From NCBI GenBank assembly GCA_041674805.1, contig JBAYVA010000004.1, forward strand, positions 30,069-94,068: a stretch of 64,000 nucleotides of DNA, read 5' to 3'. The notes under the pieces were generated by a model. That model was not told the origin of the DNA and ran no database searches. It was given only the letters and a program-made list of their open reading frames with translations. A program made the translations under genes and the position numbers. This DNA comes from Candidatus Magasanikiibacteriota bacterium (GTDB taxonomy: Bacteria; Patescibacteriota; Patescibacteriia; Magasanikbacterales; UBA922). Of the stretch, positions 11,643 to 60,953 are shown piece after piece (within the stretch, counting starts at the first letter, position 1; each line of letters starts with the position of its first letter).

Positions 11643-12158
11643 TTATTTTTTTTGCATTTTTAAAAAGAAAATCATTAGTATAAAAGCAGTAAGTGACATC
11701 ATAGGTATTGTAACATAGCCAAACTCCAAAATATATAATTTGGTACAAGAGACAGCAGTATCACAAGCAATACTATTTTCAGTACCTAGGTAATAAAGTA
11801 AATTTTGATAGACACCAATGATAGCTCCTAATATTGTCAATGTTAAAGCGTATAAGTAAGAATGTTTAAATTCTTTTTTGAAGTAAGCAATACCCAAAAA
11901 TATTGCTTGAGGATAAATAAAGACTCTTTGCCACCAACATAAAGAACATGGTAAATAGCCAACTATTTCAGAATAATACAAACTAAGTAAAGCAGAAAAA
12001 AGAGCCATTAGCCAAGCTAATAGTAGACCATATTGTCCAAAAAATTTCTTGGCCAAGTTGTTTTCTTTTTTCCAAAAAATATAAATCAAAACTACAATTA
12101 AAAAAATGTGTGATAAAAGTGTGCCTGTAGCTAAAAGTTTGTTTACTATTTCGATCAT
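11643..12158 (-). CDS. disulfide bond formation protein B (DsbB/BdbC family)
   Basis: Four TM helices, with the CSLCWWQR motif and second Cys pair (CDTAVSC) characteristic of DsbB/BdbC. Confidence 0.65.
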   Translation of the reverse strand: MIEIVNKLLATGTLLSHIFLIVVLIYIFWKKENNLAKKFFGQYGLLLAWLMALFSALLSLYYSEIVGYLPCSLCWWQRVFIYPQAIFLGIAYFKKEFKHSYLYALTLTILGAIIGVYQNLLYYLGTENSIACDTAVSCTKLYILEFGYVTIPMMSLTAFILMIFFLKMQKK

Positions 12159-12168
12159 ATTTTTTATA

Positions 12169-12549
12169 TTAAGGTAATTGACAACTTGTTTTTTCTGCTA
12201 ATTCTTGCAAAGATAATTCACCAGATTGTCTACTACCATCGGCAAATATCCAAGTAGGATAGCCTTCTATTTTTTGATTAGTACAGACAGGTAATTGTCC
12301 ATTGCTATCTACAGTAGAACATTCTACATATGGTAAGTATTTGGCAGATTTTCCAAAAGTTTCTTTTTGGGCATTACAATGTGAACACCAAAAAGCGCCA
12401 TAAAAAACAGCCCCTTTGTCTTGTAAACATTTGGCAAATTCATCTAGTTTGCCAGGTTTTTGGTTGTAAGAGACTAAACTATAAATAGCAATACTTAAGA
12501 TAATAATTATGATTGAAATTATAGTAATATTTTTTGTTTTTTTATTCAT
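12169..12549 (-). CDS. membrane-anchored thioredoxin-fold thiol-disulfide oxidoreductase
   Basis: N-terminal TM helix and WCSHC active-site motif; co-transcribed with DsbB. Confidence 0.6.
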   Translation of the reverse strand: MNKKTKNITIISIIIIILSIAIYSLVSYNQKPGKLDEFAKCLQDKGAVFYGAFWCSHCNAQKETFGKSAKYLPYVECSTVDSNGQLPVCTNQKIEGYPTWIFADGSRQSGELSLQELAEKTSCQLP

Positions 12550-16159: not shown

Positions 16160-16237
16160 ACACTGATTACACTGATTAGAAAAGATTACACTGAAAAATA
16201 AGCTAAGATCTTTAAACCATTATTTTTGTTTATTTAA

Positions 16238-18752: not shown

Positions 18753-18818
18753 AAGTTTATAAAGTAATTTGATTGTATATTTATTTTAAAAAACTTTATA
18801 AACTTTTAACTTTATAAA
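18753..18818. repeat. cluster of TTTATAAA-core motifs (ACTTTATAAAC / GTTTATAAAGT) upstream of smc
   Basis: aagtttataaagt, then actttataaac twice. Same family as the motifs at 28915-29009 and 50093-50133. Confidence 0.55.
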
Positions 18819-18895
18819 CTATTTTTATAATAAAATGATATATACTTTAGAAAGTAGTATTTTGTTTAATATTTAATTTATCGTTTGAGTAGTGT

Positions 18896-25654: not shown

Positions 25655-27661
25655 ATGCAAAAGATTTTAGAACGTATTTTGAAAATTCTTATTGGAACAA
25701 CTTTTTTTATTCCTTTGCTTGTTTTGCCAAAAGTTTATATATTTCCGTTTATCGTACCAAAGATTATTTATTTTCGCTCTCTTGTCTTGCTCATGCTTGG
25801 TGTATATTTGATTTTGTTGTTTGCAAATTTTGCTAAGTATCGTCCTAGATTTTCTTGGTTGCATGTCAGTGTTTTGGCATTTTTTTCCTCTTTCTTGATT
25901 TCTACTTTTTTAGGTGTGGATTGGTATAAGAGTTTTTGGGATAGTCACGAGAGAATGCTTGGAGCTTTTACTATTTTTCATTATATAATTTATTATATTA
26001 TTGTGAGTAGTGTTTTGCATAGTTGGGATGATTGGAAAAATTTGTTGCGTACATTTTTGTTGGCTGGTTCTGTAGTCATGTTTATTGGTCTTTTACAAAG
26101 ATATGCTGATCCAGAAATGCTTTTGAATAGAGGTAGCGAAAGAGTTTCGGCTACACTTGGTAATGCTATATATTTTAGTGGCTATGGTTTGTTTTTGTTT
26201 TTTGTAGGTGCTCTTTTGGCTGTCAAAGACAAATTGAAATTGGTTAAGAATCAAATGTTTTCTTTTGAAGCTTCTTGGTTTTGGTTTGAAGTATTAGCTG
26301 CTTTGCTTGGTTTTTGGGGAATATTTTTGGGTGGTACTAGAGGAGCGTTGGTTGCTTGGTTGTTAGCTATTATTATTTTAAGTTTGGTATATTTTTTTAC
26401 ATTAAAAGAACAGAAAAAATTGAAGCAAATAGTTTCTTTATTTTTCTTAAGTATGTTGACTATTTTTGGAGTATTGTTTATAAATAGAAATACTGAATTT
26501 GTTCAAAATTTGCCAACAGTTGGACGTCTGTTTTCTACAGATATATCTAATACAAATACTAGAGTTATGGCTTGGGGAGTGGCTTTGGATGCTTGGCAAG
26601 AAAAACCAATTTTTGGTTGGGGTCCAAATAATTATTATTATGCTTTCAATAAGTATTATCGTCCAGAATTTTTGCAATATGGTTTTACTGAAACTTGGTT
26701 TGACAATGCACATAGTGTAATCATGAATACTTTGGCTGTGCAAGGTGTGGTTGGTATTGTATTGTATGTGAGTATGTTTTTACTTGCTAGTTGGTTGTTG
26801 ATAAAGAAATATAGAGAAGGTAATTTGGATGTTCATATTTTGGCTTTTTCTTTGGCTTTTTTGTGGGCTCATTTTATTAGCGTTGCTACTGTTTTTGATA
26901 ATCCTACTTCATATTTATATTTCTTTTTCTTCTTGGCTATGGTAAATTTTTTGACAGAAAATAAAAGAGAAGAAAATCTAACTAAAAATTATAAACAAAT
27001 TTCAATAGGTATTTCAGTTTTAGTTTCTGTTTTTATTCTTATTTTATTATATAGTACAAATATTAATCCAGCTCGTGCTAACAAAGCGACTTTGCGTGCT
27101 ATCCAGAATTTGACGTCAGGCAAAGCTTTTGAAGCTGATTATGAATTGGCTTTGAAAACGCCTAGTCCTCATATAGATGATATTAGAAATGATATTTCTA
27201 GATTTTTTACTGAAGTGATCACTCAAATTTTTAAAGATACAAAAATAAAAGATAAATGGGCTGTGGCTGAAAATTTTTATAATTTGGCTGTAAATAATTT
27301 GGAAGAAAATTTGAAGATTCATCCTAATGATATTCGTGTAAGTTTACAATTGTCTCAGTTGAAGTTGATAGGTGCTTCAGCTACTCAAGATGTAAAATTG
27401 TTGCAAGAGTCTGAAAAGATTTTGGAAGATGCTTTGTTATTATCTCCAAAGAGACAACAAATACAATATTTATTGTCAAATGTCAAACAACAATTGCAAA
27501 AACCAGAAGAAGCTGAACAATTGTTGAGAGATAGTATTTCAAATGATCCTTTGATTGCAAATGGCTGGCAACAGCTTGAAAGTTTGTACAAAGCTATGGG
27601 TGAAAATGAAAAAGCAAAGGCGTTGCATGAAGAAGCTGTGGAAAAGGGAATATCTTTTTAA
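25655..27661 (+). CDS. O-antigen ligase/polymerase (Wzy_C)-family polytopic membrane protein with C-terminal TPR region
   Basis: About 12 TM helices with a large loop containing GGTRGALVAWLLA (Wzy_C-like); a soluble C-terminal roughly 200 aa with TPR-like repeats. Confidence 0.5.
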   Translation: MQKILERILKILIGTTFFIPLLVLPKVYIFPFIVPKIIYFRSLVLLMLGVYLILLFANFAKYRPRFSWLHVSVLAFFSSFLISTFLGVDWYKSFWDSHERMLGAFTIFHYIIYYIIVSSVLHSWDDWKNLLRTFLLAGSVVMFIGLLQRYADPEMLLNRGSERVSATLGNAIYFSGYGLFLFFVGALLAVKDKLKLVKNQMFSFEASWFWFEVLAALLGFWGIFLGGTRGALVAWLLAIIILSLVYFFTLKEQKKLKQIVSLFFLSMLTIFGVLFINRNTEFVQNLPTVGRLFSTDISNTNTRVMAWGVALDAWQEKPIFGWGPNNYYYAFNKYYRPEFLQYGFTETWFDNAHSVIMNTLAVQGVVGIVLYVSMFLLASWLLIKKYREGNLDVHILAFSLAFLWAHFISVATVFDNPTSYLYFFFFLAMVNFLTENKREENLTKNYKQISIGISVLVSVFILILLYSTNINPARANKATLRAIQNLTSGKAFEADYELALKTPSPHIDDIRNDISRFFTEVITQIFKDTKIKDKWAVAENFYNLAVNNLEENLKIHPNDIRVSLQLSQLKLIGASATQDVKLLQESEKILEDALLLSPKRQQIQYLLSNVKQQLQKPEEAEQLLRDSISNDPLIANGWQQLESLYKAMGENEKAKALHEEAVEKGISF

Positions 27662-28906: not shown

Positions 28907-28914
28907 TGTATTTA

Positions 28915-28983
28915 GTCCATAAAGTTTATAAAGTCTATAAAGTAAAAAGTTGTGATTTTACGGACTTTATAAACTTTATGGAC
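28915..28983. repeat. perfect 21-bp inverted repeat (GTCCATAAAGTTTATAAAGTC ... GACTTTATAAACTTTATGGAC) between gmd and fcl
   Basis: Arms at 28915-28935 and 28964-28983 are exact reverse complements, with a 28-bp spacer. A third half-site, ggactttatgaac, lies at 28997-29009. Confidence 0.7.
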
Positions 28984-29002
28984 TTTAAATTTTAAGGACT
29001 TT

Positions 29003-29959
29003 ATGAACTATTTATCAAAAATTTATGTAGCTGGACATAATGGAATGGTAGGTTCTGCTATTTTGCGTTTACTTGAAAAACAAGGTTATACAAATATTAT
29101 TATACGTACGAGAGAAGAACTTGATCTGACAAATCAGCAATCTGTGGCAGATTTTTTTGCAACAGAAAAACCAGAATATGTGATTCTGGCAGCTGCCAAA
29201 GTGGGGGGAATTATGGCCAACAATACTTACCCAGCAGATTTTCTCTATCAAAATTTACAAATTCAAAATAATGTAATTCACAATGCCTATTTGAGTGGCG
29301 TGAAGAAGTTGTTGTTTCTTGGATCTTCTTGTATTTATCCAAAGAATTGTCCGCAACCCATGAAAGAAGAATATTTATTGACTGGACTTTTGGAAGAGAC
29401 AAACGAACCTTATGCGATTGCCAAGATTGCGGGAATAAAAATGTGTCAAAGTTACAATAGACAATATGGCACAAATTTTATTGCGGTCATGCCGACCAAT
29501 CTTTATGGGGAGAATGATAATTTTGATTTGAATAATTCTCATGTTTTACCAGCTTTACTTCGCAAGTTTCACGAAGCAAAAATAAATAATTTGTCAGAAG
29601 TAGAAGTGTGGGGTACAGGTACACAAAGACGGGAATTTTTGTATGTGGATGATATGACGAAAGCTTGTCTTTTTGTCTTACAAAATTTTAGTCCAACTAA
29701 GGACCAAAATGAAAATGGCGATATATTTTTTAATATTGGGACTGGAATGGATCTTACTATTCTAGAATTAGCAGAAATGATCAAGAAAATAGTTGGTTTT
29801 GAAGGAAATATAGTTTTTGACACTACTAAACCTGATGGAACTTTGCAAAAACTCTTGGATGTAACAAAAATAAATAACTTAGGTTGGAAAGATGAAAGTA
29901 GTCTAGAAGAGGGTATAAAACAGGTTTATGATTGGTATTTGGACCGTATTGACACCTAG
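29003..29959 (+). CDS. fcl: GDP-L-fucose synthase (GDP-4-keto-6-deoxymannose 3,5-epimerase/4-reductase); a ColC-like alternative is possible
   Basis: IYVAGHNGMVGSAI, LAAAKVGGI.ANNTYPADF and NEPYAIAKIAGIK.C.SYNRQYG collinear with E. coli Fcl. Confidence 0.85.
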   Translation: MNYLSKIYVAGHNGMVGSAILRLLEKQGYTNIIIRTREELDLTNQQSVADFFATEKPEYVILAAAKVGGIMANNTYPADFLYQNLQIQNNVIHNAYLSGVKKLLFLGSSCIYPKNCPQPMKEEYLLTGLLEETNEPYAIAKIAGIKMCQSYNRQYGTNFIAVMPTNLYGENDNFDLNNSHVLPALLRKFHEAKINNLSEVEVWGTGTQRREFLYVDDMTKACLFVLQNFSPTKDQNENGDIFFNIGTGMDLTILELAEMIKKIVGFEGNIVFDTTKPDGTLQKLLDVTKINNLGWKDESSLEEGIKQVYDWYLDRIDT

Positions 29960-48685: not shown

Positions 48686-48724
48686 CAGGCCTTTTTAGCC
48701 TTTCAAGCATTTTAAGCCTTTTTA
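48686..48724. repeat. phased (A)GCCTTTT-type 9-10-bp repeats upstream of ugd
   Basis: caggccttttt agcctttca agcatttta agccttttt; same family as 57495-57539, 60861-60953 and (reverse orientation) 57319-57362. Confidence 0.55.
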
Positions 48725-50092: not shown

Positions 50093-50133
50093 AGTTTACA
50101 AACTTTATGAACTTTATAACTTTACAAACTATA
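50093..50133. repeat. tandem ACTTTAT(A/G)AAC / TTTACAAAC motifs immediately upstream of galE
   Basis: agtttacaaactttatgaactttataactttacaaactat runs straight into the ATG. Confidence 0.55.
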
Positions 50134-51140
50134 TGAAATATTTAATCACCGGCGGTGCTGGCTACATTGGTAGTCATGTCGTCAAACAATTGATTGACAA
50201 AAAAAACGATATTGTAATTGTAGATAATTTGTCTACTGGTTTACAAAAAACTATCAATACTTTGAAAAAATACGCTGACACCAAAAAAGTAAAATTAAGT
50301 TTTTATAAACTTGATTTGGCTGATAGCAAAAAATTGGAAACTGTTTTTGCCAAAGAAAAAGTTGCAGGTGTAATACATTTTGCTGCGAGTATTGTCGTGC
50401 CAGAATCAGTGATTGACCCTTTGAAATATTATGCTAATAATACGAGTAATACAATTAATTTGATCAAAGCTTGTTTGAAATATAAAGTAAACAAATTTAT
50501 TTTTAGTTCTACTGCTGCTGTCTATGGCGAGCTTGATGCAAAATATATTCCAGCCAAAGAAGATGGACCTGTTTCTCCTATCAATCCTTATGGACAAAGC
50601 AAACTTTTCAATGAAAAGATTATTCAAGATGTAGCTTTTGCTAATTCAAAATTTAAATATGTTATCTTGCGTTATTTCAATGTAGCTGGCGCCTGTCTAG
50701 ATGGCAGTATCGGACAGTCAAGTGAGAAAGCTACTTTACTAGTAAAAGTTTGTGCTGAAGTGGCACTTGGTAAACGCAAAAAATTAACATTATTTGGTAC
50801 TGATTACAAAACACCAGATGGTACTGCTATTCGTGATTATATTCACGTGGATGATTTGGCTTCTGCTCATATCAAAGCTTTGTCTTATTTGAACAAAAAT
50901 AAAAGTGATATTTTCAATTGTGGTTATGGCAAAGGTTTTTCTGTGCAAGAGGTCATAGATATGATGAAAAAAGTCAGTGGAGTTGATTTCAAAGTAGAAA
51001 AAGCAGGAAGACGTCCGGGTGATCCTGCTGTTCTTATTTCTGATAATAGTAAGATAAAAAATAAGATGGACTGGCAACCTAAGTATGATGATTTAGAAAT
51101 TATTTGTCGCACAGCGCTTGAGTGGGAGAAGAAAATTTAG
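50133..51140 (+). CDS. galE: UDP-glucose 4-epimerase
   Basis: ITGGAGYIGSHV, the YGQSKLFNE (YxxxK) motif and GalE length. Confidence 0.85.
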   Translation: MKYLITGGAGYIGSHVVKQLIDKKNDIVIVDNLSTGLQKTINTLKKYADTKKVKLSFYKLDLADSKKLETVFAKEKVAGVIHFAASIVVPESVIDPLKYYANNTSNTINLIKACLKYKVNKFIFSSTAAVYGELDAKYIPAKEDGPVSPINPYGQSKLFNEKIIQDVAFANSKFKYVILRYFNVAGACLDGSIGQSSEKATLLVKVCAEVALGKRKKLTLFGTDYKTPDGTAIRDYIHVDDLASAHIKALSYLNKNKSDIFNCGYGKGFSVQEVIDMMKKVSGVDFKVEKAGRRPGDPAVLISDNSKIKNKMDWQPKYDDLEIICRTALEWEKKI

Positions 51141-51854: not shown

Positions 51855-54800
51855 ATGGAGGGGAAAAAGAAAAGTCTATTTTTTTTGTCAATAATAATAT
51901 TTTCTTTTTTATTTTTTAATTTAGTTAGTGCAGAAAATATTTTGAATGTGCCATTTATTTCACAGTACCCGCCAGGTACAAGTTGGAATTTTACTTTGAA
52001 TTGTGGTCCGACATCTTATTTAATGTTAGAATCATACTATACTAATAAAAAATTAGAAATACAATCTATAAAAGATATAGATGATTGGTTATATACAAAT
52101 TATAATAGACCAATTAATAATTACAATGGTTATTATACAGATACTGCTGATTTAAAAATATTAGCAACTGAATATGGTGATTTTACAGATGAAGATGTTA
52201 TAAAAACACGTTCGCTTGATGATATTAAGGAAGCTGTAAATAATAATTTTCCAGTTATTGTTGCAGTATATACAAATATGATGGCCTATAAAAATAGGAG
52301 TAATGGTCACTTCATGGTCCTCACTGGTATTACAGACGATACTGTTTATGTAAACGATCCTGGAAAAACTTATGGCAAGAACATGAGTTATAGTTTGGAA
52401 CAATTTCTTTATGCTTGGTCGCTGCAAAATAATGCGGCTCTTATTTTTTATCCACCAAATTCTGCTAATACAAAAAAATTAGATCAATTAGCACCTTATC
52501 TTTTGTTAAATAATAATTATAGTTATAATTCAGTTTTTAGTGAGATTTTTTCTAATTATACTAATATTTTTGATTTGAATAATTTAAAAGATCTAGAAGT
52601 AAAAGATAAAAAATTAGAAGAAAAACCATTGGAAGAAGATGTTAAGGTTTTTTATAATTCTGTTATAGAAGACAAAAATCTTAATTTACAGGCAAATGCA
52701 AATGAAGAATTGAATATTAAGTTGAAAGTAAAAAATACTTCTAATGTTTCTTGGGAAAGAAAAAATTTTTCTGTAAATGTTGTGGGAGGTGAAGTTCAAA
52801 ACAAAATTTTTTATCATAATTCTTGGATTACAAAATTACGACCAGCTTTGCAAAAAGAAAATATAGTTGAGTCAAATAATTTAGCTACTTTTGATTTTGT
52901 TATTCAAGCTCCTGACAAACCTGGTGATTATGTTTTTAAGTTGACGGTTGTTAGGCAATCTGGTAATAGTTTTAGTAATGTTGGTACAGATGTTTTTGTA
53001 TTGAATTTAGAAGTTTTAGAAGAAAAAAAAGTTGATGAAAAAATTGAAGCAGAACCTGAAAAAATAGTGATAGAAGAAAAAAAAGAAGAAATTGTTACCA
53101 AAGAAGAAGTTATTAAAAAAGAAGAGATAATTCAAAATAATTTTATTTCAAGTCCAAGCTATTCCTCTGGTTCTTCTTCTGGCTCTTCTTCAAATGGTTC
53201 AAATCAAAACAATGATGATGTTGTAAAATCATTTTTCTTTAATTTTGCTAGTTCTACACCAGTTATTACTAATCAATCAAAAGTTGTTTTTAATGGTGAA
53301 AAAACAAAAGAACTAACCAGATTAAAAATAAATAATTTGGATAGTTTGTTTTTTGATCAAGGTAATATTTGGTCTGTAGATTTTTCGTTACAAGAAGGAG
53401 ATAATAATATTTTGATGTCTTTTTTTGATGATACTTATGAAAATAGTGTAAGCGGCACTACGTATATTGCTCTTGATAGTACAGCCCCTGACAAACCTAT
53501 TTTGCAAGCTGTGGTAGTAGGTGATAATCAAAAACAAATCAATTTAACTTGGCAAAGTAATGATGTCGGTAGTGGAATTGATTATTATGTTTTGGAGTTC
53601 AAACAAAATAGTGTAGATGATTGGCAGTCTTTGGTGAGTAGTACTTTTGAAAATAGTTTTGTTTTTCCAGCAGAAATAGCGAAAGAATATTCTTTTAGAG
53701 TAAAAGCTTATGATAAATTAGGAAATGAGTCTTTGTGGAGTAATGATGGACAAGAAGAAATTATTTCTGTAGATTGGTCAAAAGAAGTAGTGATAAATGA
53801 GATAGCTTATGCTCCCACATATTCAAACAATTGTGGTGGTGAATGGATAGAATTGTATAATCCAGGATCAACAGATATTGATTTGTCTGGTTGGAAGTTG
53901 GAAATTTTGGATAGTAGTTCTTCTAGTACTGTAGATCTTACGGGTTTTGTGAGTAGTACTTCTTACAAAGTTATTCCAATTTCTAATATGTCAGATATTG
54001 GAGCCAAAATTACCTTAAAAAATTCTTTAGGTAATATTGTAGATGAGACTGATCAAAGTTTGGGTTGGTTTCCTACGTTGAATACTAATCATTCTCGTTC
54101 TTTGGAAAGAATTAATTTTGAAAGATCAGGTAATTTTCATAGTAATTGGCGAGAAAATAATTCACTTAAATTTTCTTTTTCAAATAGTAGTTGTGGTGAA
54201 AATTATTCTAGTCAAGGTTTTGATAATAATAGTTTTTATTTTTTATCAAAAAATTTAGATAGAGATTATGTTTTTTCAAATTCTTCTACTGATAATTTTG
54301 TTTTGACTTTGACCAAAGATCATAATCCTTATATTTTGTCGCAAGAAGTAGTATTACCATCTAATTACACTCTTATTTTAGAACCGGGTGTCGTCGTCGT
54401 TGGTATTGATAAAGATTCTGTTTTGAAAGTAAGTGGCAAATTGCAAATAAATGGTACAGAAGATGATCCTGTTTATTTTACTTCAGCACGTGATAAAACA
54501 GTGGCTGATTGGTATGCTTTGGGTAATCCAAGCAATAAATTAGCTGCCGGTGATCCTGCTCCTGGTGATTGGAGTGCCATTGTGGTAAAAGGTGGTGTTG
54601 TTGAAGCAAATTATGCCAATTTTTGGTATGGAGGAAGTACTTATAGAGATGGTAGTTGTTATGTGTGTTATAGTCAAGTTGTGATTCGTAATGAATCTGG
54701 AACTGTAAAAGTAACTAATTCAAATTTTGATAACATTTTTTTGAAAGATGATTATTCCGATCATCAAGATGCTTATATTTGGGATGGTGGAGGTAATATT

Positions 54801-55694
54801 GAAGTGGATAATACTATTTTTAATAATGGTTATTATTCTTTAGTTAGTTCCTATGGTTCTAATATAAATTTTACCAATAATGTAATTAGCAATTTTACAT
54901 TTCAGCCAGTTTCACCGGTAGTTTTGACTAGTAATGGTACTAATATTGTAAAGTGGTCAAATAATAGTTTGATAGATAATAATAACAATTTTGTGACATT
55001 ACCAGCTTTGGAGGTAAATGAAGATTATACTTTGACTACAGATGTAAATAATGTATATTTTATGGGAATAAATGTGACTTCTACAGCGACTTTAAATGTT
55101 TTACCTGGTGTTCATATAAATTTATTTGATAAACGTTTTTTGAAAGTAGAAGGAAATTTGCAAGCTTTGGGTACATCTGAAAATCCAATAGAGGTTTGTC
55201 CTTATGCTGTTTGTGGTGGTATTTGGTTACAAGATTCTCAAGGTAGTAAATTGTCTTTTGTTAATTTGAAAAATGGTGGTTATCATGATAATAGAGAGTA
55301 TCCTTATGATTATCTTTCAAAATATTATTCACCTTTTTGGTTAGTGAATTCAAAAGTAGAAATGGATAATGTAAATATTTTTGATAGCCGTTTTCCAAAT
55401 GCTTATAGTATTTGTAGTTTGAATAGTGATTTGCAAATCAAAGATTCTAATTTAGGTTGGACTGTAAAAAGAGATTATACTATTATTGGTGGAATTTATT
55501 TTTATGGTGGAAATTTATTTTTAGATAATACAAATTTTCATTTTAATAAATATGCTATTGATGCAAGTAAAGGAGATGGTGTTGTAACTTATGAAAATAT
55601 GAGTCCTGCTAATTTTATCAATAGTTTGCCGGCTAATGGATTCAAAAATTGGTTACCAGCAAGTTTGTTTCCTTTTGTTATTGAATATTGGTAG
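51855..55694 (+). CDS. large surface protein: C39-like peptidase domain + lamin-tail domain + right-handed beta-helix repeats
   Basis: Signal/TM helix; NVPFISQYPPGTSWNFTLNCGPTSYLM resembles the C39-like papain-fold domain; INEIAYAPTYSNNCGGEWIELYNPGSTDIDLSGWKL is an LTD signature; the C-terminal N/G/S-rich repeats are typical of pectate-lyase-like beta-helix. Confidence 0.6.
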   Translation: MEGKKKSLFFLSIIIFSFLFFNLVSAENILNVPFISQYPPGTSWNFTLNCGPTSYLMLESYYTNKKLEIQSIKDIDDWLYTNYNRPINNYNGYYTDTADLKILATEYGDFTDEDVIKTRSLDDIKEAVNNNFPVIVAVYTNMMAYKNRSNGHFMVLTGITDDTVYVNDPGKTYGKNMSYSLEQFLYAWSLQNNAALIFYPPNSANTKKLDQLAPYLLLNNNYSYNSVFSEIFSNYTNIFDLNNLKDLEVKDKKLEEKPLEEDVKVFYNSVIEDKNLNLQANANEELNIKLKVKNTSNVSWERKNFSVNVVGGEVQNKIFYHNSWITKLRPALQKENIVESNNLATFDFVIQAPDKPGDYVFKLTVVRQSGNSFSNVGTDVFVLNLEVLEEKKVDEKIEAEPEKIVIEEKKEEIVTKEEVIKKEEIIQNNFISSPSYSSGSSSGSSSNGSNQNNDDVVKSFFFNFASSTPVITNQSKVVFNGEKTKELTRLKINNLDSLFFDQGNIWSVDFSLQEGDNNILMSFFDDTYENSVSGTTYIALDSTAPDKPILQAVVVGDNQKQINLTWQSNDVGSGIDYYVLEFKQNSVDDWQSLVSSTFENSFVFPAEIAKEYSFRVKAYDKLGNESLWSNDGQEEIISVDWSKEVVINEIAYAPTYSNNCGGEWIELYNPGSTDIDLSGWKLEILDSSSSSTVDLTGFVSSTSYKVIPISNMSDIGAKITLKNSLGNIVDETDQSLGWFPTLNTNHSRSLERINFERSGNFHSNWRENNSLKFSFSNSSCGENYSSQGFDNNSFYFLSKNLDRDYVFSNSSTDNFVLTLTKDHNPYILSQEVVLPSNYTLILEPGVVVVGIDKDSVLKVSGKLQINGTEDDPVYFTSARDKTVADWYALGNPSNKLAAGDPAPGDWSAIVVKGGVVEANYANFWYGGSTYRDGSCYVCYSQVVIRNESGTVKVTNSNFDNIFLKDDYSDHQDAYIWDGGGNIEVDNTIFNNGYYSLVSSYGSNINFTNNVISNFTFQPVSPVVLTSNGTNIVKWSNNSLIDNNNNFVTLPALEVNEDYTLTTDVNNVYFMGINVTSTATLNVLPGVHINLFDKRFLKVEGNLQALGTSENPIEVCPYAVCGGIWLQDSQGSKLSFVNLKNGGYHDNREYPYDYLSKYYSPFWLVNSKVEMDNVNIFDSRFPNAYSICSLNSDLQIKDSNLGWTVKRDYTIIGGIYFYGGNLFLDNTNFHFNKYAIDASKGDGVVTYENMSPANFINSLPANGFKNWLPASLFPFVIEYW

Positions 55695-55876: not shown

Positions 55877-57313
55877 ATGGAAAAACAAACCAAAATTGTC
55901 TGTACTATTGGACCTTCTTGTGAAGATGTAGAAACTCTTGAAAAGATGGTAAGGGCGGGGATGAATGTAGCTAGACTCAATTTTTCACACGGCACTTATG
56001 AAAATCATGCAATGCTTATAAAAAATATTCGTGAAGTAGCTGAGAAGACTGGTGAACCTGTTGCGATTTTGCAAGATTTGTCAGGACCAAAAATTAGAAT
56101 AGAAAAAGTTGCCGAAGAAGGTGTGAATTTGGTAGAAGGGGCTGAAGTAATTTTTTCTACAGATCCTTCTGACAAAGATGCTATTCAAGTTGGTTACAAA
56201 GAGTTGCATAAGTTTATCAAAAAAGGTGAAGCCATGTTTCTCGATGATGGTAAAATAGAAGTCGTAGTAAAAGAAGTTCAAGACAAAAAAATTATTACAA
56301 AAGTTGTCGTTGCTGGAGTTTTGTTTTCCAACAAAGGTATCAATATTCCTAAGACTGATTTGACAGGATTAGAAGTTTTGACAGAAAAAGATAAAGCTGA
56401 TGCAAAATTTGGTGTAGAACAAGGAGTAGATATGATTGCTTTGTCTTTTGTAATGCGTCCAGATGATATTCTTGATTTACGTTATCATATCAAACAGATG
56501 GAATTAGAATTGGGTATAGAGCCTCATGATCCTATAAAGATTATCGCCAAAATAGAAAAAGCTGAAGCTGTAAAACATATCAAAGATATTATTCAAGTGA
56601 CTGATGGTATCATGGTAGCTCGTGGAGATTTGGGAGTTGAAATTCCTGCGGAAGAAGTGCCAATTGTGCAGAAAAAATTGATAGATATTGCTCTTGAAAA
56701 TGCCAAACCGGTGATTGTTGCTACTCAAATGCTTGATTCGATGCAAAATAATCCTCGTCCTACTCGTGCGGAAGTTTCTGATGTTGCCAATGCTGTGATT
56801 GATCACACAGACGCTGTAATGCTTTCTAATGAAACTGCAACTGGAAAATATCCAGTTGAAACTGTTTCGATGATGAGTAAAATTATCAAAGAAACAGAAA
56901 AATCAGAATATACCAAATTGTTTATTCGTGAACCAAAAGAAAAGACAAACAAAATAGACGACGTTATAAGTGGATTGTCCCGTCTTGTTGCTGAAGATGT
57001 GGGGGCTGATCTTATTTTGGCAGCTTCTTTATCTGGAGAAACTGGTCGTTTGATTTCTCGTTATCGTCCAAAATTTCCGATTGCAGTAGCAACCAATAGT
57101 AAGTTGGTTTCACATCAATTGAATTTATCTTGGGGTGTCTTGCCTTTTGAAGTGATTGAATGTAAAAGTATTGAAGAATTAGTTGAGCGTTCTATGACTC
57201 ATTTACGTGAGAAAAAAATAATCAAATCAGGTGATAGAATTATTGTGGTAGCTGGTGAACCTGTTGGTCATGCTGGTTTTGTTAATTTGCTTGAAGTGAG
57301 GGAAGTGAAGTAA
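55877..57313 (+). CDS. pyk: pyruvate kinase
   Basis: KIVCTIGPS, ARLNFSHG, MVARGDLGVEIP motifs. Confidence 0.9.
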   Translation: MEKQTKIVCTIGPSCEDVETLEKMVRAGMNVARLNFSHGTYENHAMLIKNIREVAEKTGEPVAILQDLSGPKIRIEKVAEEGVNLVEGAEVIFSTDPSDKDAIQVGYKELHKFIKKGEAMFLDDGKIEVVVKEVQDKKIITKVVVAGVLFSNKGINIPKTDLTGLEVLTEKDKADAKFGVEQGVDMIALSFVMRPDDILDLRYHIKQMELELGIEPHDPIKIIAKIEKAEAVKHIKDIIQVTDGIMVARGDLGVEIPAEEVPIVQKKLIDIALENAKPVIVATQMLDSMQNNPRPTRAEVSDVANAVIDHTDAVMLSNETATGKYPVETVSMMSKIIKETEKSEYTKLFIREPKEKTNKIDDVISGLSRLVAEDVGADLILAASLSGETGRLISRYRPKFPIAVATNSKLVSHQLNLSWGVLPFEVIECKSIEELVERSMTHLREKKIIKSGDRIIVVAGEPVGHAGFVNLLEVREVK

Positions 57314-57494: not shown

Positions 57495-57539
57495 AAAGCC
57501 TTTTAGGCCTTTTGGGCATTTTAAGCATTTCAAGCCTTA
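57495..57539. repeat. phased GCCTTTT-type 9-bp repeats upstream of ppsA
   Basis: aaagcctttt aggcctttt gggcatttt aagcatttc aagcctta; closely related to 48686-48724. Confidence 0.55.
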
Positions 57540-57547
57540 TTACTATT

Positions 57548-57576
57548 TTGTAAATTTTCATTTTTTGTGCTATAAT
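57548..57576 (+). promoter_or_regulatory. candidate promoter for ppsA: TTGTAA-17-TGcTATAAT (extended -10)
   Basis: TGCTATAAT at 57568-57576 with a -35-like TTGTAA at 57548-57553; about 30 nt before the ATG. Confidence 0.45.
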
Positions 57577-57604: not shown

Positions 57605-60600
57605 ATGTTAAAAAACCGCGAAAAAAAATTGCAGATCGCGGAACAAAATACTAATAAAAATAACGTGGCTAGAGATAGCAAACGTGTTTTGTGGTTTGAT
57701 GAAATTGGTATCAAAGATATACCACTTGTTGGTGGTAAAAATGCTAGTCTTGGTGAAATGTACAACAATTTGAGTAAAAAAGGTATTAGTGTTCCAAATG
57801 GTTTTGCTGTAACATCTTTTAGTTACTGGGAATTTTTGGACAAAACTGGTTTGAAACAAAAAATAAAAAATGTTGTCAAAGATTTGAATATAAATGACAT
57901 AAAAAATTTATCTCAAGTTGGTGCAAAAATTAGAAAAATGATTTTGGCTGAAAAACTTCCAAAAGAATTAGCCAAAGAAATTGATACTGCTTATACACAA
58001 TTATCCAAAGAACAAAAAATAAATAATATTGCTGTGGCAGTACGTTCTTCTGCTACTGCTGAAGATTTGCCTGATGCTAGTTTTGCTGGTCAACAAGAAA
58101 CTTATTTAAATATTGTTGGTAAAAATGATTTACAGTTGGCTGTCAAAAAATGTATTGCTTCACTTTTTACTGATAGAGCTATTTCTTATCGTGAAACCAA
58201 AGGTTTTGATCATCTTGATGTGGCTTTGTCTGTGACTGTACAAATTATGGTCGGTTCTGAATCTGGTGCTAGTGGTGTGATGTTTACGCTAGATACAGAG
58301 TCTGGTTTTCCTGGAGTTGTACTTATCAATGCCTCTTATGGTCTTGGTGAATATGTAGTAAAGGGTAGAGTTACTCCTGATCAATTTTATGTTTTCAAAG
58401 AAGGTCTGAAAAATGGCAAAAAATCTGTTATTAGTAAAATTCTGGGTACCAAAGAAGTAAAGCTTGTTTATGGTAAGACAGGAACAAAGCAAATGACAGT
58501 ACCAAAATTACAACAAAATAAATTTTCTATTACCGAAGACGAAGTTTTACAATTGGCCAAATGGGGTGTAGAAATTGAAGAATATTACAAAAAACATCAA
58601 GATATTGAATGGGCCAAAGATGGTAAAACTGGCAAATTGTATATTGTCCAAGCTCGTCCTGAAACAGTGAAAGCTAATGTAGACAAAGCTTTTATTGAGA
58701 CATATATTTTAAACAAAAAAGGTAAAGTATTACTTACAGGTACTTCTGTCGGTCAAAAGATTGGTGCTGGCAAAGTGCGTGTAATAGACAATCCAAAACA
58801 AATGAAACTTTTCAAAAAAGGTGAAGTTTTGGTGACTAGAATTACTGATCCAGATTGGGAGCCAATTATGCGTATTGCTTCAGCTATTGTGACTGAACAA
58901 GGTGGCAAGACTTCTCATGCGGCTATCGTTTCTCGTGAACTTGGCGTACCTTGTGTGGTTGGTGCCAAAAATGCTCGTAAAATTTTGAAAACAGGTGAAA
59001 AAGTAACTGTTAGTTGTACTGGCGGGGATGAAGGAACTATTTACAAAGAAATGTTGCCATTTGAAGTACAAAAAACTGAAATTAAACAAGTAGACAAAAC
59101 TAATACCAAAATCATGATGAATGTTGGTGATCCTGATAATGCTTTTTCTTTGTCATTTTTACCAAATGATGGTGTAGGCCTTGCTCGTGAAGAATTTATT
59201 TTTAGTAATTTTATTCGTATTCATCCTTTGGCTCTTGTTAATTATGATAAATTGAAAGATAAAAAAGCCAAAGAACAAATAGCTGAAATTACTCGTGGCT
59301 ATGACAAAAAGACAGATTATGCTGTAGACAAATTAGCTGAAGGTATTGCTCGTATTTCAGCGGCTTTTTATCCAAAAGATGTGATTGTCCGTTTGTCAGA
59401 TTTCAAAACAAATGAATATGCTACTCTTATTGGTGGCAAAGAATTTGAACCAAAAGAAGAAAATCCAATGCTTGGTTGGCGTGGAGCTAGTAGATATTAT
59501 TCCAAAGAATACAAACCAGGTTTCAAATTAGAATGTGAAGCTATCAAAAAAGTTCGTGAAGAATGGGGATTAAAAAATCTTATTGTCATGATTCCATTTT
59601 GTCGTACACCAGAAGAAGGACAAAAAGTATTAGATACCATGAAAGAATTTGGTCTTGAGCGTGGCCGCGAAGATTTGCAAGTTTATGTGATGTGTGAAAT
59701 TCCATCGAACGTTATTTTGGCAGATGATTTTGCTCAAATGTTTGATGGTTTTAGTATTGGTTCCAATGATTTGACACAGCTTACTTTGGGTGTAGATAGA
59801 GATTCTGCTTTGGTTAGTCATGTTTATAATGAAAGAAATCAAGCAGTAACAAAACTTATCAAAGATGTTATTAGAACTGCTCACAAACACAAACGTAAAG
59901 TTGGTATTTGTGGACAAGCTCCAAGTGATTATCCAGAGTTTGCTGAAATGCTCGTGCGTGAAGGTATTGATAGTATTTCTCTCAACCCAGATACCGTGAT
60001 TTCTACACGTGAACGTATTTCTTTTACTGAAAAAACTTTAGGTAAAAAAGGTCATAAAACACATAAAACTTATTTAGGTTTGGTGACTTTGCTTGGTATT
60101 ATTTCTGCTTTTACTATGACTTTGGGTGCTGGTTGTAATTTGTCACAAGATGTAAGTCAAAACAACAAAGCTGTAATTCAAGAAATCACACCTTCTCAAA
60201 TTCGTGAAAATGCTGAAAAAAGAATGCAAGAAAAAAAATCTCAAGAAAAATTGCAATTGACTCAGACTATTAGTATGGCAGATTTTGCTAATTTCAATTT
60301 TAAATATCCTCAAGAGTGGACTGTGAATTATTGGAATGGGGGAGTAACAGTATTTAATTCTAGTTCTAGTGAATATGTGAGTGTTTTCAAACAATTAGTA
60401 GCTCATCCTATTGCTCTTGAACAAAAAGAAAAAATAACTATAGCTGGTCGTGAAGCTTTCAAATATACTCAAGCTATTGTCAGTAGTACCAAATCTTTTA
60501 CTGTAGTTGAAGTAAATATGGGTGATTATATTTTGGAAATGAATAGTGATGCTCCAAATTTTGTAGAAATGCTCAATACTTTCCAGTTTACTAGTTCTAG

Positions 60601-60763
60601 CAATCCTGATAGACCTCTTACTCATTGGGACGTCCTAGAAAAGAGAATTTGTGTGCAAATGATTACTTATGCCAAACAAGGTGAAGCAGGTAGTTGTCAG
60701 GCTTTTCCTACGCCTTGTGATGTGCCATCTGGTTGGCAAGTATGTAATTCTTCTTCACAATAA
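57605..60763 (+). CDS. ppsA: phosphoenolpyruvate synthase (pyruvate, water dikinase) fused in-frame to a roughly 250-aa C-terminal signal-peptide/lipoprotein-like domain
   Basis: N-terminal LVGGKNASLGEMY, phosphohistidine region GGKTSHAAIVSRELGVPCVVG, and a PEP-utilising TIM barrel ending near GIDSISLNPDTV (about aa 795). It is then followed, with no stop, by KKGHKTHKTY-LGLVTLLGIISAFTMTLGAGC and a soluble Cys-containing domain. Confidence 0.75.
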   Translation: MLKNREKKLQIAEQNTNKNNVARDSKRVLWFDEIGIKDIPLVGGKNASLGEMYNNLSKKGISVPNGFAVTSFSYWEFLDKTGLKQKIKNVVKDLNINDIKNLSQVGAKIRKMILAEKLPKELAKEIDTAYTQLSKEQKINNIAVAVRSSATAEDLPDASFAGQQETYLNIVGKNDLQLAVKKCIASLFTDRAISYRETKGFDHLDVALSVTVQIMVGSESGASGVMFTLDTESGFPGVVLINASYGLGEYVVKGRVTPDQFYVFKEGLKNGKKSVISKILGTKEVKLVYGKTGTKQMTVPKLQQNKFSITEDEVLQLAKWGVEIEEYYKKHQDIEWAKDGKTGKLYIVQARPETVKANVDKAFIETYILNKKGKVLLTGTSVGQKIGAGKVRVIDNPKQMKLFKKGEVLVTRITDPDWEPIMRIASAIVTEQGGKTSHAAIVSRELGVPCVVGAKNARKILKTGEKVTVSCTGGDEGTIYKEMLPFEVQKTEIKQVDKTNTKIMMNVGDPDNAFSLSFLPNDGVGLAREEFIFSNFIRIHPLALVNYDKLKDKKAKEQIAEITRGYDKKTDYAVDKLAEGIARISAAFYPKDVIVRLSDFKTNEYATLIGGKEFEPKEENPMLGWRGASRYYSKEYKPGFKLECEAIKKVREEWGLKNLIVMIPFCRTPEEGQKVLDTMKEFGLERGREDLQVYVMCEIPSNVILADDFAQMFDGFSIGSNDLTQLTLGVDRDSALVSHVYNERNQAVTKLIKDVIRTAHKHKRKVGICGQAPSDYPEFAEMLVREGIDSISLNPDTVISTRERISFTEKTLGKKGHKTHKTYLGLVTLLGIISAFTMTLGAGCNLSQDVSQNNKAVIQEITPSQIRENAEKRMQEKKSQEKLQLTQTISMADFANFNFKYPQEWTVNYWNGGVTVFNSSSSEYVSVFKQLVAHPIALEQKEKITIAGREAFKYTQAIVSSTKSFTVVEVNMGDYILEMNSDAPNFVEMLNTFQFTSSSNPDRPLTHWDVLEKRICVQMITYAKQGEAGSCQAFPTPCDVPSGWQVCNSSSQ

Positions 60764-60781
60764 TGTTTATTTTATATAATT

Positions 60782-60822
60782 AAAAACGGTTTCTTGTTCT
60801 AAGAGACCGTTTTTTTTGTTTT
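60782..60822 (+). terminator. rho-independent terminator after ppsA
   Basis: Hairpin aacggtttc-ttgttctaa-gagaccgtt followed by TTTTTTTGTTTTT. Confidence 0.65.
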
Positions 60823-60860: not shown

Positions 60861-60953
60861 TAAGCAAAATAAGCAAATTTAAGTGTAAACCTAGTAAGCT
60901 TTGTAAGCCTTGTAGGCGCCTTGTGAGCCTTGTAATCTTACGTCTTGCAAATC
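60861..60953. repeat. about six degenerate tandem roughly 9-bp repeats (TAAGCCTTG family) upstream of trhO
   Basis: agtaagctttg taagccttg taggcgccttg tgagccttg taatcttacg tcttgcaaatc. Confidence 0.5.

What the first reader, a model, noticed from the sequence alone, without database searches (positions are those of the whole stretch)
57605..60763. PEP synthase is fused in-frame to a secretion-signal/lipoprotein-like domain
The PpsA homology ends near residue 795 (GIDSISLNPDTV...), about where stand-alone PpsA proteins terminate. The frame then continues with a basic n-region (KKGHKTHKTY), a hydrophobic h-region (LGLVTLLGIISAFTMTL) and GAGC, i.e. a signal-peptide or lipobox-like segment, and then a roughly 230-aa Cys-containing soluble domain. 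A cytoplasmic glycolytic enzyme fused to an exported domain is topologically odd. The most likely explanation is loss of the ppsA stop codon, merging it with a downstream lipoprotein gene. The alternative is a genuine membrane-tethered PpsA.
Basis: seen in the sequence. Interest (0 to 1): 0.5.

Follow-up and report, generated by a model that had tools for sequence, protein, structure and literature searches.

The report
Membrane-anchored PEP synthase with outside domain
In this group of tiny uncultured bacteria (Candidatus Magasanikbacteria) the central-metabolism enzyme PEP synthase is always made as one chain with a membrane-spanning helix and an outward-facing binding domain, so the fusion is a conserved, undescribed design and not a sequencing or mutational accident.

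Summary
ORF 57605-60763 (+) encodes 1052 aa: a complete PEP synthase (aa 24-813), a basic hinge, one hydrophobic helix (824-843), LGAGC (Cys844) and a 208-aa tail.

The same in-frame architecture occurs in at least 118 protein clusters (60-86% identity) and 24 species-level genomes, almost all Ca. Magasanikbacteria. The junction is under purifying selection as strong as the enzyme core. No internal start codon is conserved.

One hydrophobic segment, charge bias (+4 before, -1 after) and a DsbB/thioredoxin pair in the window all indicate N-in/C-out topology.

Cys844 is invariant and fits the permissive lipobox pattern, but not the strict one (Gly at -3). The helix also carries a small-xxx-small ladder. 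Whether the chain stays intact or is lipidated and cut at Cys844 is unresolved.

I found no description of this in the literature. It is a new variant of a known enzyme.

The parts
55877..57313 (+). pyruvate kinase gene, conserved immediate upstream neighbour of the fused ppsA
   Evidence: ORF. Pfam PK and PK_C on the called gene. The same family (F1, about 478 aa) lies just upstream of the fusion in most of the 24 related loci.
57548..57576 (+). promoter-like site (TTGTAA, 17-nt spacer, TATAAT with a TG extension) ahead of the ORF
   Evidence: This is a consensus match only.
57605..60763 (+). single ORF of 1052 aa: PEP synthase, hinge, transmembrane helix and extracytoplasmic tail
   Evidence: Identical to NCBI MFA7245512.1, 'MAG: phosphoenolpyruvate synthase [Candidatus Magasanikbacteria bacterium]', on a 743,922-bp contig.
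57722..58681 (+). PPDK_N ATP-grasp (nucleotide-binding) domain, aa 40-359
   Evidence: Pfam PF01326, E=1.3e-120.
58811..59026 (+). mobile phospho-histidine domain, aa 403-474, with the invariant K435-T436-S437-H438
   Evidence: Pfam PF00391. Invariant columns in the 75-sequence alignment. Aligned to 2OLS.
59072..60022 (+). PEP/pyruvate-binding TIM-barrel domain, aa 490-806, with the invariant C769-G770-Q771
   Evidence: Pfam PF02896. Invariant columns.
60029..60073 (+). conserved basic hinge EKTLGKKGHKTHKTY, aa 809-823 (cytoplasmic side)
   Evidence: Position counts across 119 relatives. Mean net charge is +4.0 in the 15 residues before the helix. Low pLDDT at 814-820 in the full-length model.
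60074..60133 (+). single transmembrane helix, aa 824-843, ending in L-G-A-G, with a small-xxx-small ladder (G-13, A-9, G/S-5, G-1)
   Evidence: Hydropathy. Position counts. Helix 821-843 in the AF2 model. dN/dS 0.05-0.13.
60134..60136 (+). invariant Cys844 at the outer end of the helix (lipobox-like +1 Cys)
   Evidence: Cys in all 119 sequences aligned by the pattern, and in P0055, which the pattern missed. The permissive PS51257 core pattern is met in 117 of 118, the strict lipobox in 1 of 118.
60137..60187 (+). hypervariable, disordered linker, aa 845-861
   Evidence: Mean column identity 0.12. pLDDT below 50 for 841-862.
60188..60583 (+). helix with the conserved SPAxIRE motif plus a PsbP/Mog1-fold beta-rich domain, aa 862-993
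60650..60745 (+). 4-Cys mini-module (C1016, C1031, C1038, C1047), absent from the short-tail variants
   Evidence: Profile positions about 165-207 recur 3-6 times in proteins that carry signal peptides or lipoboxes: P0144, P0150, P0152, P0165. Short variants lack it.
60782..60814 (+). intrinsic-terminator-like hairpin plus T-run, 19 nt after the stop codon
11643..12549 (-). DsbB homologue and a membrane-anchored thioredoxin-fold protein with a CSHC motif: extracytoplasmic disulfide-forming machinery in the same genome (context, not part of the gene)
   Evidence: Pfam DsbB 39.3 bits and Thioredoxin 29.4 bits. FWCSHC motif behind an N-terminal hydrophobic segment.

Best explanation
This is one genuine gene encoding a bitopic membrane protein that is conserved across Ca. 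Magasanikbacteria.

Layout. A complete, catalytically intact PEP synthase sits in the cytoplasm. A flexible basic hinge and one transmembrane helix hold it at the inner face of the membrane. About 208 residues are exported: a floppy linker, a helix, a PsbP/Mog1-fold binding domain and, in most members, a disulfide-rich 4-Cys module.

Shown by the data:
- one uninterrupted reading frame, conserved in relatives;
- purifying selection across the junction;
- no conserved internal start codon;
- a single hydrophobic segment, and positive charges on the enzyme side;
- an exported-type fold and exported-type Cys module in the tail.

Inferred:
- The hydrophobic segment acts as an internal signal-anchor, inserted through SRP and Sec/YidC with the C-terminal part translocated.
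- The helices of the PpsA dimer pack through their small-xxx-small faces.
- The outside domain binds an envelope or host-surface partner. It thereby localises the PEP/pyruvate step, or regulates it. The conserved upstream neighbour is pyruvate kinase, which catalyses the opposing step.

The invariant Cys844 lies in a lipobox-like motif. I rate the outcomes as follows: about 55% that the chain stays intact as an anchor, with or without lipidation or an interchain disulfide at Cys844; about 35% that Lgt/LspA lipidate and cut at Cys844; about 10% for something else.
For: - Single ORF with a promoter-like site before it and a terminator-like hairpin after it, and nothing of either kind at the junction.
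- PpsA equivalog HMMs score far above their cut-offs.
- The catalytic T-S-H and G-I-C-G-Q motifs are invariant.
- The best 120 relatives listed carry the same architecture, 118 of them 970-1076 aa; so do 24 species genomes, all in frame.
- dN/dS is 0.05-0.11 for the core, 0.05-0.13 for the junction and 0.08-0.32 for the tail.
- No internal start codon is conserved.
- One hydrophobic segment only, with net charge +4.0 before it and -1.0 after it across 118 sequences.
- The AF2 full-length model shows the enzyme, a hinge, helix 821-843, a disordered stretch 841-862 and a folded tail.
- The tail model has pLDDT 91 and a PsbP/Mog1 fold, shared with known lipoproteins and secreted proteins such as LpqN, DcrB, Mtc28, Apa and Tsi3.
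- The Cys module recurs in proteins with signal peptides or lipoboxes.
- DsbB and a CXXC thioredoxin are encoded in the window.
- Small residues sit at -13, -9, -5 and -1 of the helix.
Against: - There is no experimental evidence on topology, membrane association, processing or activity.
- The near-invariant L-G-A-G-C and the hypervariable linker after the Cys look like a lipoprotein cleavage site. The 'tether' may therefore be severed after export.
- The outside domain has no recognisable ligand or partner, so the localising or regulating role is conjecture.
- I could not check whether these genomes also carry an unfused ppsA.
Confidence: 0.75

Rival explanations
1. Internal lipoprotein signal. 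The hinge, helix and LGAGC act as a type II signal peptide buried at residue 809-844. After export of the tail, Lgt adds diacylglycerol to Cys844 and LspA cuts between Gly843 and Cys844. One ORF then yields two products: a PpsA carrying a C-terminal membrane anchor (or a soluble PpsA, if the leftover signal peptide is degraded) and a 209-aa surface lipoprotein.
For: - Cys844 is invariant in all 119 sequences aligned by the pattern, and in P0055, which the pattern missed. It is preceded by small residues (G-3, A-2, G-1) and a hydrophobic -4, and followed by a hypervariable polar linker of the kind seen at mature lipoprotein N-termini.
- The permissive PROSITE PS51257 core pattern is met in 117 of 118 sequences, against 3 of 118 anywhere in the enzyme core.
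- Short-tail variants have no other Cys in the tail, so the Cys is not kept for an intramolecular disulfide.
- Several structural neighbours of the tail fold are lipoproteins, namely LpqN and DcrB.
- Ordinary N-terminal lipobox proteins exist in related Magasanikbacteria loci, so the pathway is probably present.
Against: - The strict lipobox [LVI][ASTVI][GAS]C is met in only 1 of 118 because -3 is Gly. Ordinary lipoproteins in the same genomes have a bulky residue at -3.
- The signal is 800 residues from the N-terminus, and I found no documented precedent ('internal lipobox' gave no papers).
- The helix is as constrained as the enzyme core (dN/dS 0.05-0.13) and has a regular small-xxx-small ladder. 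That is unlike a disposable signal peptide. In L003-L005 the neighbouring lipoprotein's signal peptide varies while the PpsA helix is almost unchanged.
- Lgt and LspA could not be found in the roughly 520 kb available. This says little either way.
Confidence: 0.35
2. Recent loss of the ppsA stop codon, or a sequencing or assembly error, has merged two genes in this genome only.
For: The only support is that stand-alone PpsA proteins end near the point where the extension begins and that the extension starts like a lipoprotein precursor.
Against: The same fusion is found in at least 118 protein clusters from many independent assemblies and in 24 species genomes, all in frame. The junction is under strong purifying selection. 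Junction codons vary synonymously without ever producing a stop.
Confidence: 0.01
3. Two products by internal translation initiation: the tail is also, or only, translated on its own from a start codon just upstream of the signal-like segment, as a normal lipoprotein precursor nested in the ppsA frame.
For: In about half of the loci the Leu of EKTLG is encoded by TTG, a possible start codon.
Against: That codon is TTA in the window and CTA, CTT, GTC, GTT or ATT elsewhere. L017 has no ATG, GTG or TTG at all in the 40 codons before the Cys. No promoter-like site is placed at the junction.
Confidence: 0.03

Closest known systems
Bacterial PEP synthase PpsA (pyruvate, water dikinase, EC 2.7.9.2), e.g. 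Neisseria meningitidis PpsA, PDB 2OLS
   Same: It has all three domains, the full-length equivalog HMM match, and the catalytic T-S-H histidine and G-I-C-G-Q cysteine. It aligns from residue 27 to 801 with the 794-aa solved enzyme.
   Different: Known PpsA proteins are soluble and end about 10 residues after the last shared helix. This one continues for about 240 residues with a hinge, a transmembrane helix and an exported two-module tail.
Archaeal multimeric PEP synthases with a C-terminal extension (24-chain entries PDB 9DAE, 846 aa, and 8A8E, 817 aa)
   Same: These are PpsA enzymes that carry extra C-terminal residues beyond the bacterial core. Both align to about residue 812 of the query.
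   Different: Their extensions are short (about 20-50 aa). From general knowledge they serve oligomer assembly in the cytoplasm. They have no hydrophobic segment, no exported domain and no Cys motif.
Bacterial lipoprotein precursors (Lgt/LspA substrates; PROSITE PS51257)
   Same: A basic n-region, a hydrophobic stretch of about 20 residues, small residues before an invariant Cys, and a variable polar tether after it. The exported domain has a fold seen in real lipoproteins, LpqN and DcrB.
   Different: The signal is internal (Cys at residue 844, not 15-35). Position -3 is Gly rather than Leu, Val or Ile. The hydrophobic segment is positionally conserved.
PsbP/Mog1-fold extracytoplasmic proteins (cyanobacterial PsbP, M. 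tuberculosis LpqN/Mtc28/Apa, Salmonella DcrB, T6SS immunity proteins Tsi3/TplEi; Pfam PsbP_2 PF18933)
   Different: Sequence identity is only 6-14%. The window's tail itself has no Pfam hit. None of the known members is fused to a cytoplasmic enzyme.
[not shown]
   Same: The same overall logic: an N-terminal cytoplasmic catalytic domain, one helix and a C-terminal outside binding domain. This is an analogy about how it may work, not a claim of membership.
   Different: The catalytic part here is a central-metabolism enzyme, not a signalling kinase. No signalling has been shown.

Membership tests
PEP synthase (PpsA, EC 2.7.9.2) | Three-domain architecture: PPDK_N, PEP-utilizers and PEP-utilizers_C | tested here: met
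   all three Pfam domains, E from 1e-120 to 5e-26.
PEP synthase (PpsA, EC 2.7.9.2) | Score above the curated cut-off of the equivalog models | tested here: met
   NF005057 scores 1200.6 bits (cut-off 598); TIGR01418 scores 1153 bits (cut-off 739.75).
PEP synthase (PpsA, EC 2.7.9.2) | Catalytic phospho-histidine (T-S-H) and the active-site Cys of the PEP-binding domain (G-I-C-G-Q) | tested here: met
   T436, S437, H438 and C769, G770, Q771 are invariant in 75 family members and align with 2OLS.
PEP synthase (PpsA, EC 2.7.9.2) | Pyruvate + ATP + H2O <-> PEP + AMP + Pi activity | not testable with these tools
   Needs an enzyme assay.
Bacterial lipoprotein precursor (Lgt/LspA substrate) | Positively charged n-region followed by a hydrophobic h-region | tested here: met
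   KKGHKTHKTY followed by 20 hydrophobic or small residues. Mean net charge +4.0 across 118 sequences.
Bacterial lipoprotein precursor (Lgt/LspA substrate) | Lipobox, permissive PROSITE PS51257 core pattern | tested here: met
   117 of 118 family members.
Bacterial lipoprotein precursor (Lgt/LspA substrate) | Canonical lipobox [LVI](-3)[ASTVI](-2)[GAS](-1)C | tested here: not met
   1 of 118. Position -3 is Gly in 117 of 119.
Bacterial lipoprotein precursor (Lgt/LspA substrate) | Signal at the N-terminus, with the Cys within about 15-35 residues of the start | tested here: not met
   The Cys is residue 844. No internal start codon is conserved.
Bacterial lipoprotein precursor (Lgt/LspA substrate) | Lgt and LspA encoded in the genome | tested here: inconclusive
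   No hit in the window plus 25 loci, about 520 kb. Ordinary N-terminal lipobox proteins in related loci suggest the pathway exists.
Bacterial lipoprotein precursor (Lgt/LspA substrate) | Diacylglyceryl modification and cleavage at the Cys | not testable with these tools
   Needs lipid labelling, globomycin treatment or mass spectrometry.
PsbP/Mog1-like fold (Pfam PsbP_2 PF18933 and relatives) | Fold similarity to solved members | tested here: met
   [not shown]
PsbP/Mog1-like fold (Pfam PsbP_2 PF18933 and relatives) | Sequence match to the Pfam model above the gathering score | tested here: not met
   The window tail has no hit at E<=1. Of the stand-alone relatives only P0209 reaches 27.9 bits against a cut-off of 27; the others fall below it.
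Single-pass (bitopic) N-in/C-out membrane protein | Exactly one hydrophobic segment of membrane-spanning length, with positive charge bias on the cytoplasmic side | tested here: met
   KD19 of 1.92 at residues 824-842 against 1.05 for the next best. Net charge +4.0 before and -1.0 after. 117 of 118 sequences have no second segment.
Single-pass (bitopic) N-in/C-out membrane protein | Experimentally shown topology | not testable with these tools
   Needs PhoA/LacZ or protease-accessibility experiments.

The most novel reading that the evidence does not exclude
The extension is a functional device and not just an anchor, in one of two ways.

(a) The outside PsbP-like domain senses an envelope or host-surface cue and, through the conserved helix and hinge, switches a dimeric PEP synthase on or off. 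That would be a receptor-enzyme wiring an external signal directly into the PEP/pyruvate node of an ultra-small symbiont.

(b) The segment is the first internal lipoprotein signal. Lgt/LspA would split one translated chain into a cytoplasmic-face enzyme and a surface lipoprotein made in fixed 1:1 amounts.

One distant relative hints that the tail has a role of its own. P0217 keeps the helix, G-A-G-C and the PsbP-like tail but has lost the PpsA catalytic motifs.
Probability: 0.3. Interest if true: 0.8.

Novelty: new variant of a known kind. Interest (0 to 1): 0.6.

Why it matters
PEP synthase is textbook soluble central metabolism. A whole lineage of candidate-phyla-radiation bacteria keeps it welded to a membrane helix and an exported binding domain, under purifying selection, next to pyruvate kinase. 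That suggests these minimal, probably host-dependent cells organise or control the PEP/pyruvate step at the cell envelope.

The locus also offers a clean test of whether a lipoprotein-type signal can work from the middle of a polypeptide.

On the practical side, automatic annotation calls these proteins simply 'phosphoenolpyruvate synthase', which hides about 240 residues of unexplained, conserved sequence. That sequence includes a small Cys-rich module, not matched by any Pfam model, that is widespread in secreted proteins of uncultured bacteria.

Tried and rejected
- **Ordinary lipoproteins in the window.** I scanned the 64-kb window for N-terminal lipoproteins to learn the genome's own lipobox and found none. 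Related loci had to serve instead.
- **The search for related loci with the tail alignment (A1).** This failed because no stretch was conserved enough. An alignment including the junction (A2) worked.
- **Lgt/LspA.** The single regex hit was a spurious antisense ORF. This says nothing about whole genomes.
- **Literature.** I searched for membrane-bound PpsA in CPR bacteria, for an internal lipobox, and for Lgt/Lsp in Patescibacteria, Parcubacteria and Magasanikbacteria. Nothing relevant came back. The CPR metabolism paper PMC7304191 mentions PEP synthetase only as a possible substitute for pyruvate kinase.
- **AlphaFold-database fold search.** The library was not available.
- **A tail paralogue next door.** The lipoprotein gene just downstream of the fusion in L003-L005 is unrelated to the tail.
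- **Composition.** The GC profile shows no break at the junction that would suggest a chimera.
- **Word-indexed search with the tail alone.** This returned only 5 hits and badly understated the family. The full-length search and the exhaustive profile search corrected that.
Full report

Yes. The window holds one uninterrupted ORF at 57605..60763 (+), 1052 aa, ATG to TAA.

Pfam finds the three PEP-synthase domains at aa 40-359, 403-474 and 490-806. The NCBIfam PpsA equivalog NF005057 covers aa 24-813 (profile 3-793 of 798) at 1200.6 bits against a cut-off of 598, and TIGR01418 gives 1153 bits against 739.75. The solved 794-aa N. meningitidis enzyme (2OLS) aligns to aa 27-801 and ends about ten residues later.

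After that the frame continues as follows:
- EKTLGKKGHKTHKTY (aa 809-823);
- LGLVTLLGIISAFTMTLGAG (aa 824-843);
- Cys844;
- 208 further residues with four more Cys (1016, 1031, 1038, 1047).

The tail has no Pfam or NCBIfam match. A promoter-like site precedes the ORF (57548-57576) and a terminator-like hairpin follows it (60782-60814). Nothing comparable sits at the junction, and GC content shows no break there.

**2. Is it an artefact or a private mutation?**

No. The protein is identical to NCBI MFA7245512.1, 'MAG: phosphoenolpyruvate synthase [Candidatus Magasanikbacteria bacterium]', on a 743,922-bp contig.

- The best 120 cluster representatives listed (60-86% identity) are 909-1076 aa, 118 of them 970 aa or longer. 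The full-length ones cover 86-100% of the query.
- In 119 of them a simple pattern aligns the junction. The one it missed, P0055, has LGVGC.
- The consensus is ...TRERIAxVEKTLGK.GKKT..., then about 20 hydrophobic or small residues, then L-G-A-G-C. The Cys is invariant, G-3 is present in 117 of 119, A-2 in 102 and G-1 in 118.
- A scan of one genome per GTDB species returned 24 loci, mostly named Ca. Magasanikbacteria. All encode the fusion in frame. Apart from three contig-end fragments they are full-length, 974-1076 aa.
- Nei-Gojobori dN/dS for seven genome pairs is 0.05-0.11 for the enzyme core, 0.05-0.13 for the hinge, helix and Cys, and 0.08-0.32 for the tail. The junction is therefore as constrained as the enzyme.
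- The codons of the 40 residues before the Cys vary synonymously without ever making a stop. They conserve no start codon: the Leu of EKTLG is TTG, TTA, CTA, CTT, GTC, GTT or ATT, and L017 has no ATG, GTG or TTG at all in that stretch.

**3. Anatomy of the extension**

Hydropathy shows a single membrane-length segment. The KD19 mean is 1.92 at residues 824-842, against 1.05 for the next best. Only 1 of 118 relatives has any second segment. Net charge averages +4.0 in the 15 residues before the helix and -1.0 in the 15 after the Cys. By the positive-inside rule, the enzyme is inside and the tail outside.

The full-length AlphaFold2 model (75-sequence alignment, mean pLDDT 84) gives:
- a well-folded enzyme whose last helix is 795-815;
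- a low-confidence hinge at 814-820;
- a helix at 821-843;
- a disordered stretch at 841-862;
- a folded tail.

The tail alone (55-sequence alignment) models at pLDDT 91. About 18 residues are disordered, then comes a helix (tail positions 20-39) carrying the conserved S-P-A-x-I-R-E motif, a beta-rich domain (43-148) and a small C-terminal unit with the four Cys.

An exhaustive profile search of 1.84 billion representatives found 864 proteins at E<=1e-3.
- The whole tail occurs only at the C-terminus of proteins of about 900-1040 aa, that is PpsA fusions, and in fragments of them.
- The PsbP-like part also occurs in small stand-alone proteins with an N-terminal anchor or a pilin-type N-terminus (P0209, P0237, P0242, P0181). 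These weakly match Pfam PsbP_2.
- The 4-Cys unit (profile positions about 165-207) occurs 3-6 times in tandem in proteins that begin with signal peptides or lipoboxes. Examples are P0144 (MKKLLLSALVLVFLSSC...), P0150, P0152 and the PKD-domain protein P0165. No Pfam model matches it.

About 15 of the 120 relatives are 'short-tail' forms that lack the Cys unit and have Cys844 as the only Cys of the tail.

The window itself encodes a DsbB homologue and an adjacent membrane-anchored thioredoxin-fold protein with FWCSHC (11643-12549, minus strand). The cell can therefore make disulfides outside the cytoplasm.

Column identity by region is:

| Region | Mean column identity |
|---|---|
| Enzyme domains | 0.68-0.83 |
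| Hinge | 0.54-0.62 |
| Helix | 0.50 |
| Cys844 | 1.0 |
| Post-Cys linker | 0.12 |
| PsbP-like domain | 0.34 |
| Cys unit | 0.57 |

**4. How it most likely works**

The data show one polypeptide with a complete PpsA (T436-S437-H438 and C769-G770-Q771 invariant), one helix and an exported-type tail.

I infer that the hydrophobic segment is an internal signal-anchor that leaves PpsA at the inner membrane face and exposes the tail. Bacterial PpsA is oligomeric (general knowledge). The helix carries small residues at -13 (G, 87%), -9 (A/G/S, 82%), -5 (G/S/T/A, 84%) and -1 (G, 99%). A helix dimer is therefore plausible.

Pyruvate kinase is the immediate upstream gene in the window and in most related loci. 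The two enzymes of the PEP/pyruvate node are thus genetically linked.

My best guess is that the outside domain binds an envelope or host-surface partner and thereby positions or modulates PpsA. That last step is conjecture.

**5. The lipobox question**

- The permissive PROSITE PS51257 core pattern is met in 117 of 118 relatives, against 3 of 118 anywhere in the enzyme core.
- The Cys is invariant even where no other tail Cys exists.
- The residues after it are hypervariable, as in lipoprotein tethers.
- Related Magasanikbacteria loci do contain ordinary N-terminal lipobox proteins, with boxes such as FLAAC, FVSGC, LLSGC and FFTGC.

Against this:
- The strict lipobox is met in 1 of 118 because -3 is Gly, whereas the ordinary lipoproteins have a bulky -3.
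- The signal is 800 residues from the N-terminus, for which I found no precedent.
- The helix is positionally conserved and as constrained as the enzyme core. In genomes L003-L005 the signal peptide of the neighbouring lipoprotein varies while the PpsA helix is nearly identical.
- I could not establish whether Lgt and LspA are present.

I therefore put about 55% on an intact bitopic protein, with Cys844 possibly lipidated or disulfide-linked. I put about 35% on Lgt/LspA processing into a membrane-anchored PpsA plus a surface lipoprotein, and about 10% on something else.

**6. Comparison with what is known**

It is a member of the PpsA family by every sequence criterion tested. It departs from all described PpsA proteins in having a membrane helix and an exported C-terminal region.

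The archaeal 24-mer PEP synthases in the PDB (9DAE, 8A8E) also have C-terminal extras, but these are short and lack any hydrophobic segment.

It is not a canonical lipoprotein precursor, since two defining features were tested and not met. It may still work like one.

The tail belongs to the PsbP/Mog1 fold class by structure but not by Pfam sequence model.

In logic it resembles bitopic receptor-type enzymes such as PknB-like kinases. That is only an analogy.

**7. Novelty and verdict**

Literature searches found no description of a membrane-anchored or lipobox-bearing PEP synthase. Database names are plain 'phosphoenolpyruvate synthase'.

I class it as a new variant of a known kind. It is real, conserved and lineage-wide, with an unresolved but testable mechanism. 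Interest 0.6.

Noticed in passing
57496-57538, 60884-60935, 48689-48722, 28914-29003, 50101-50137, 18791-18820, 16160-16194: Short tandem repeats with a 9-bp period (3-6 copies, e.g. AAGCCTTTT and TGTAAGCCT) sit in several intergenic regions directly upstream of gene starts or promoter-like sites. These include the regions ahead of the fused ppsA and of the rhodanese/UPF0176 gene. They may be a lineage-specific upstream element or phased DNA curvature.
   Followed up: no
P0217 (455-aa contig-end fragment from the profile search; not in the window): A distant relative, 22% identical over the PEP-binding domain, helix and tail. It keeps the hinge, the helix, T-G-A-G-C and the PsbP-like tail, but lacks the G-I-C-G-Q cysteine and the S-I-G-S-N-D-L-T-Q motif. 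It is therefore possibly a catalytically dead PpsA-like protein with the same membrane device.
   Followed up: partly
window 60650-60745, and proteins P0144, P0150, P0152, P0165: The 4-Cys unit (C.Q[MV]ITYA....C..FPTPCDVP.GW.VC) is a small module that matches no Pfam model. It occurs as 3-6 tandem copies in many signal-peptide- or lipobox-bearing proteins from metagenomes.
   Followed up: partly
11643-12549 (-): An adjacent DsbB homologue and a membrane-anchored thioredoxin-fold protein with a CSHC motif. This is an extracytoplasmic disulfide-forming pair in a very small genome.
   Followed up: partly
55877-57313 (+), and loci L004-L026: Pyruvate kinase lies immediately upstream of the fused ppsA in the window and in most related genomes. 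This places the two opposing enzymes of the PEP/pyruvate step side by side.
   Followed up: partly
51855-55694 (+): A 1279-aa protein with an N-terminal signal-like segment, a Peptidase_C39-like domain, a lamin-tail domain and a weak fn3 match. It is a large, probably secreted or surface protease-like protein just upstream of pyk.
   Followed up: no
about 30400-51140 (+): A long same-strand run of genes. The six ORFs scanned between 43996 and 51140 are three glycosyltransferases, an FkbM-type methyltransferase, a UDP-glucose/GDP-mannose dehydrogenase and an NAD-dependent epimerase/dehydratase. The rest of the run was not scanned. A separate Wzy_C O-antigen-ligase-like membrane protein lies upstream at 25655-27661. 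Together these look like a cell-surface polysaccharide cluster.
   Followed up: no
7154-7591 and 10239-10877 (+): Weak matches to PrgI and TraE family proteins hint at a conjugation or type-IV-secretion-like gene set near the start of the window.
   Followed up: no
L003 3806, L004 11278, L005 10288 (related loci): In the three closest genomes a lipoprotein gene of about 240-280 aa, with a classical N-terminal lipobox, lies just downstream of the fused ppsA. It is absent from the window at that position and is unrelated to the tail.
   Followed up: partly
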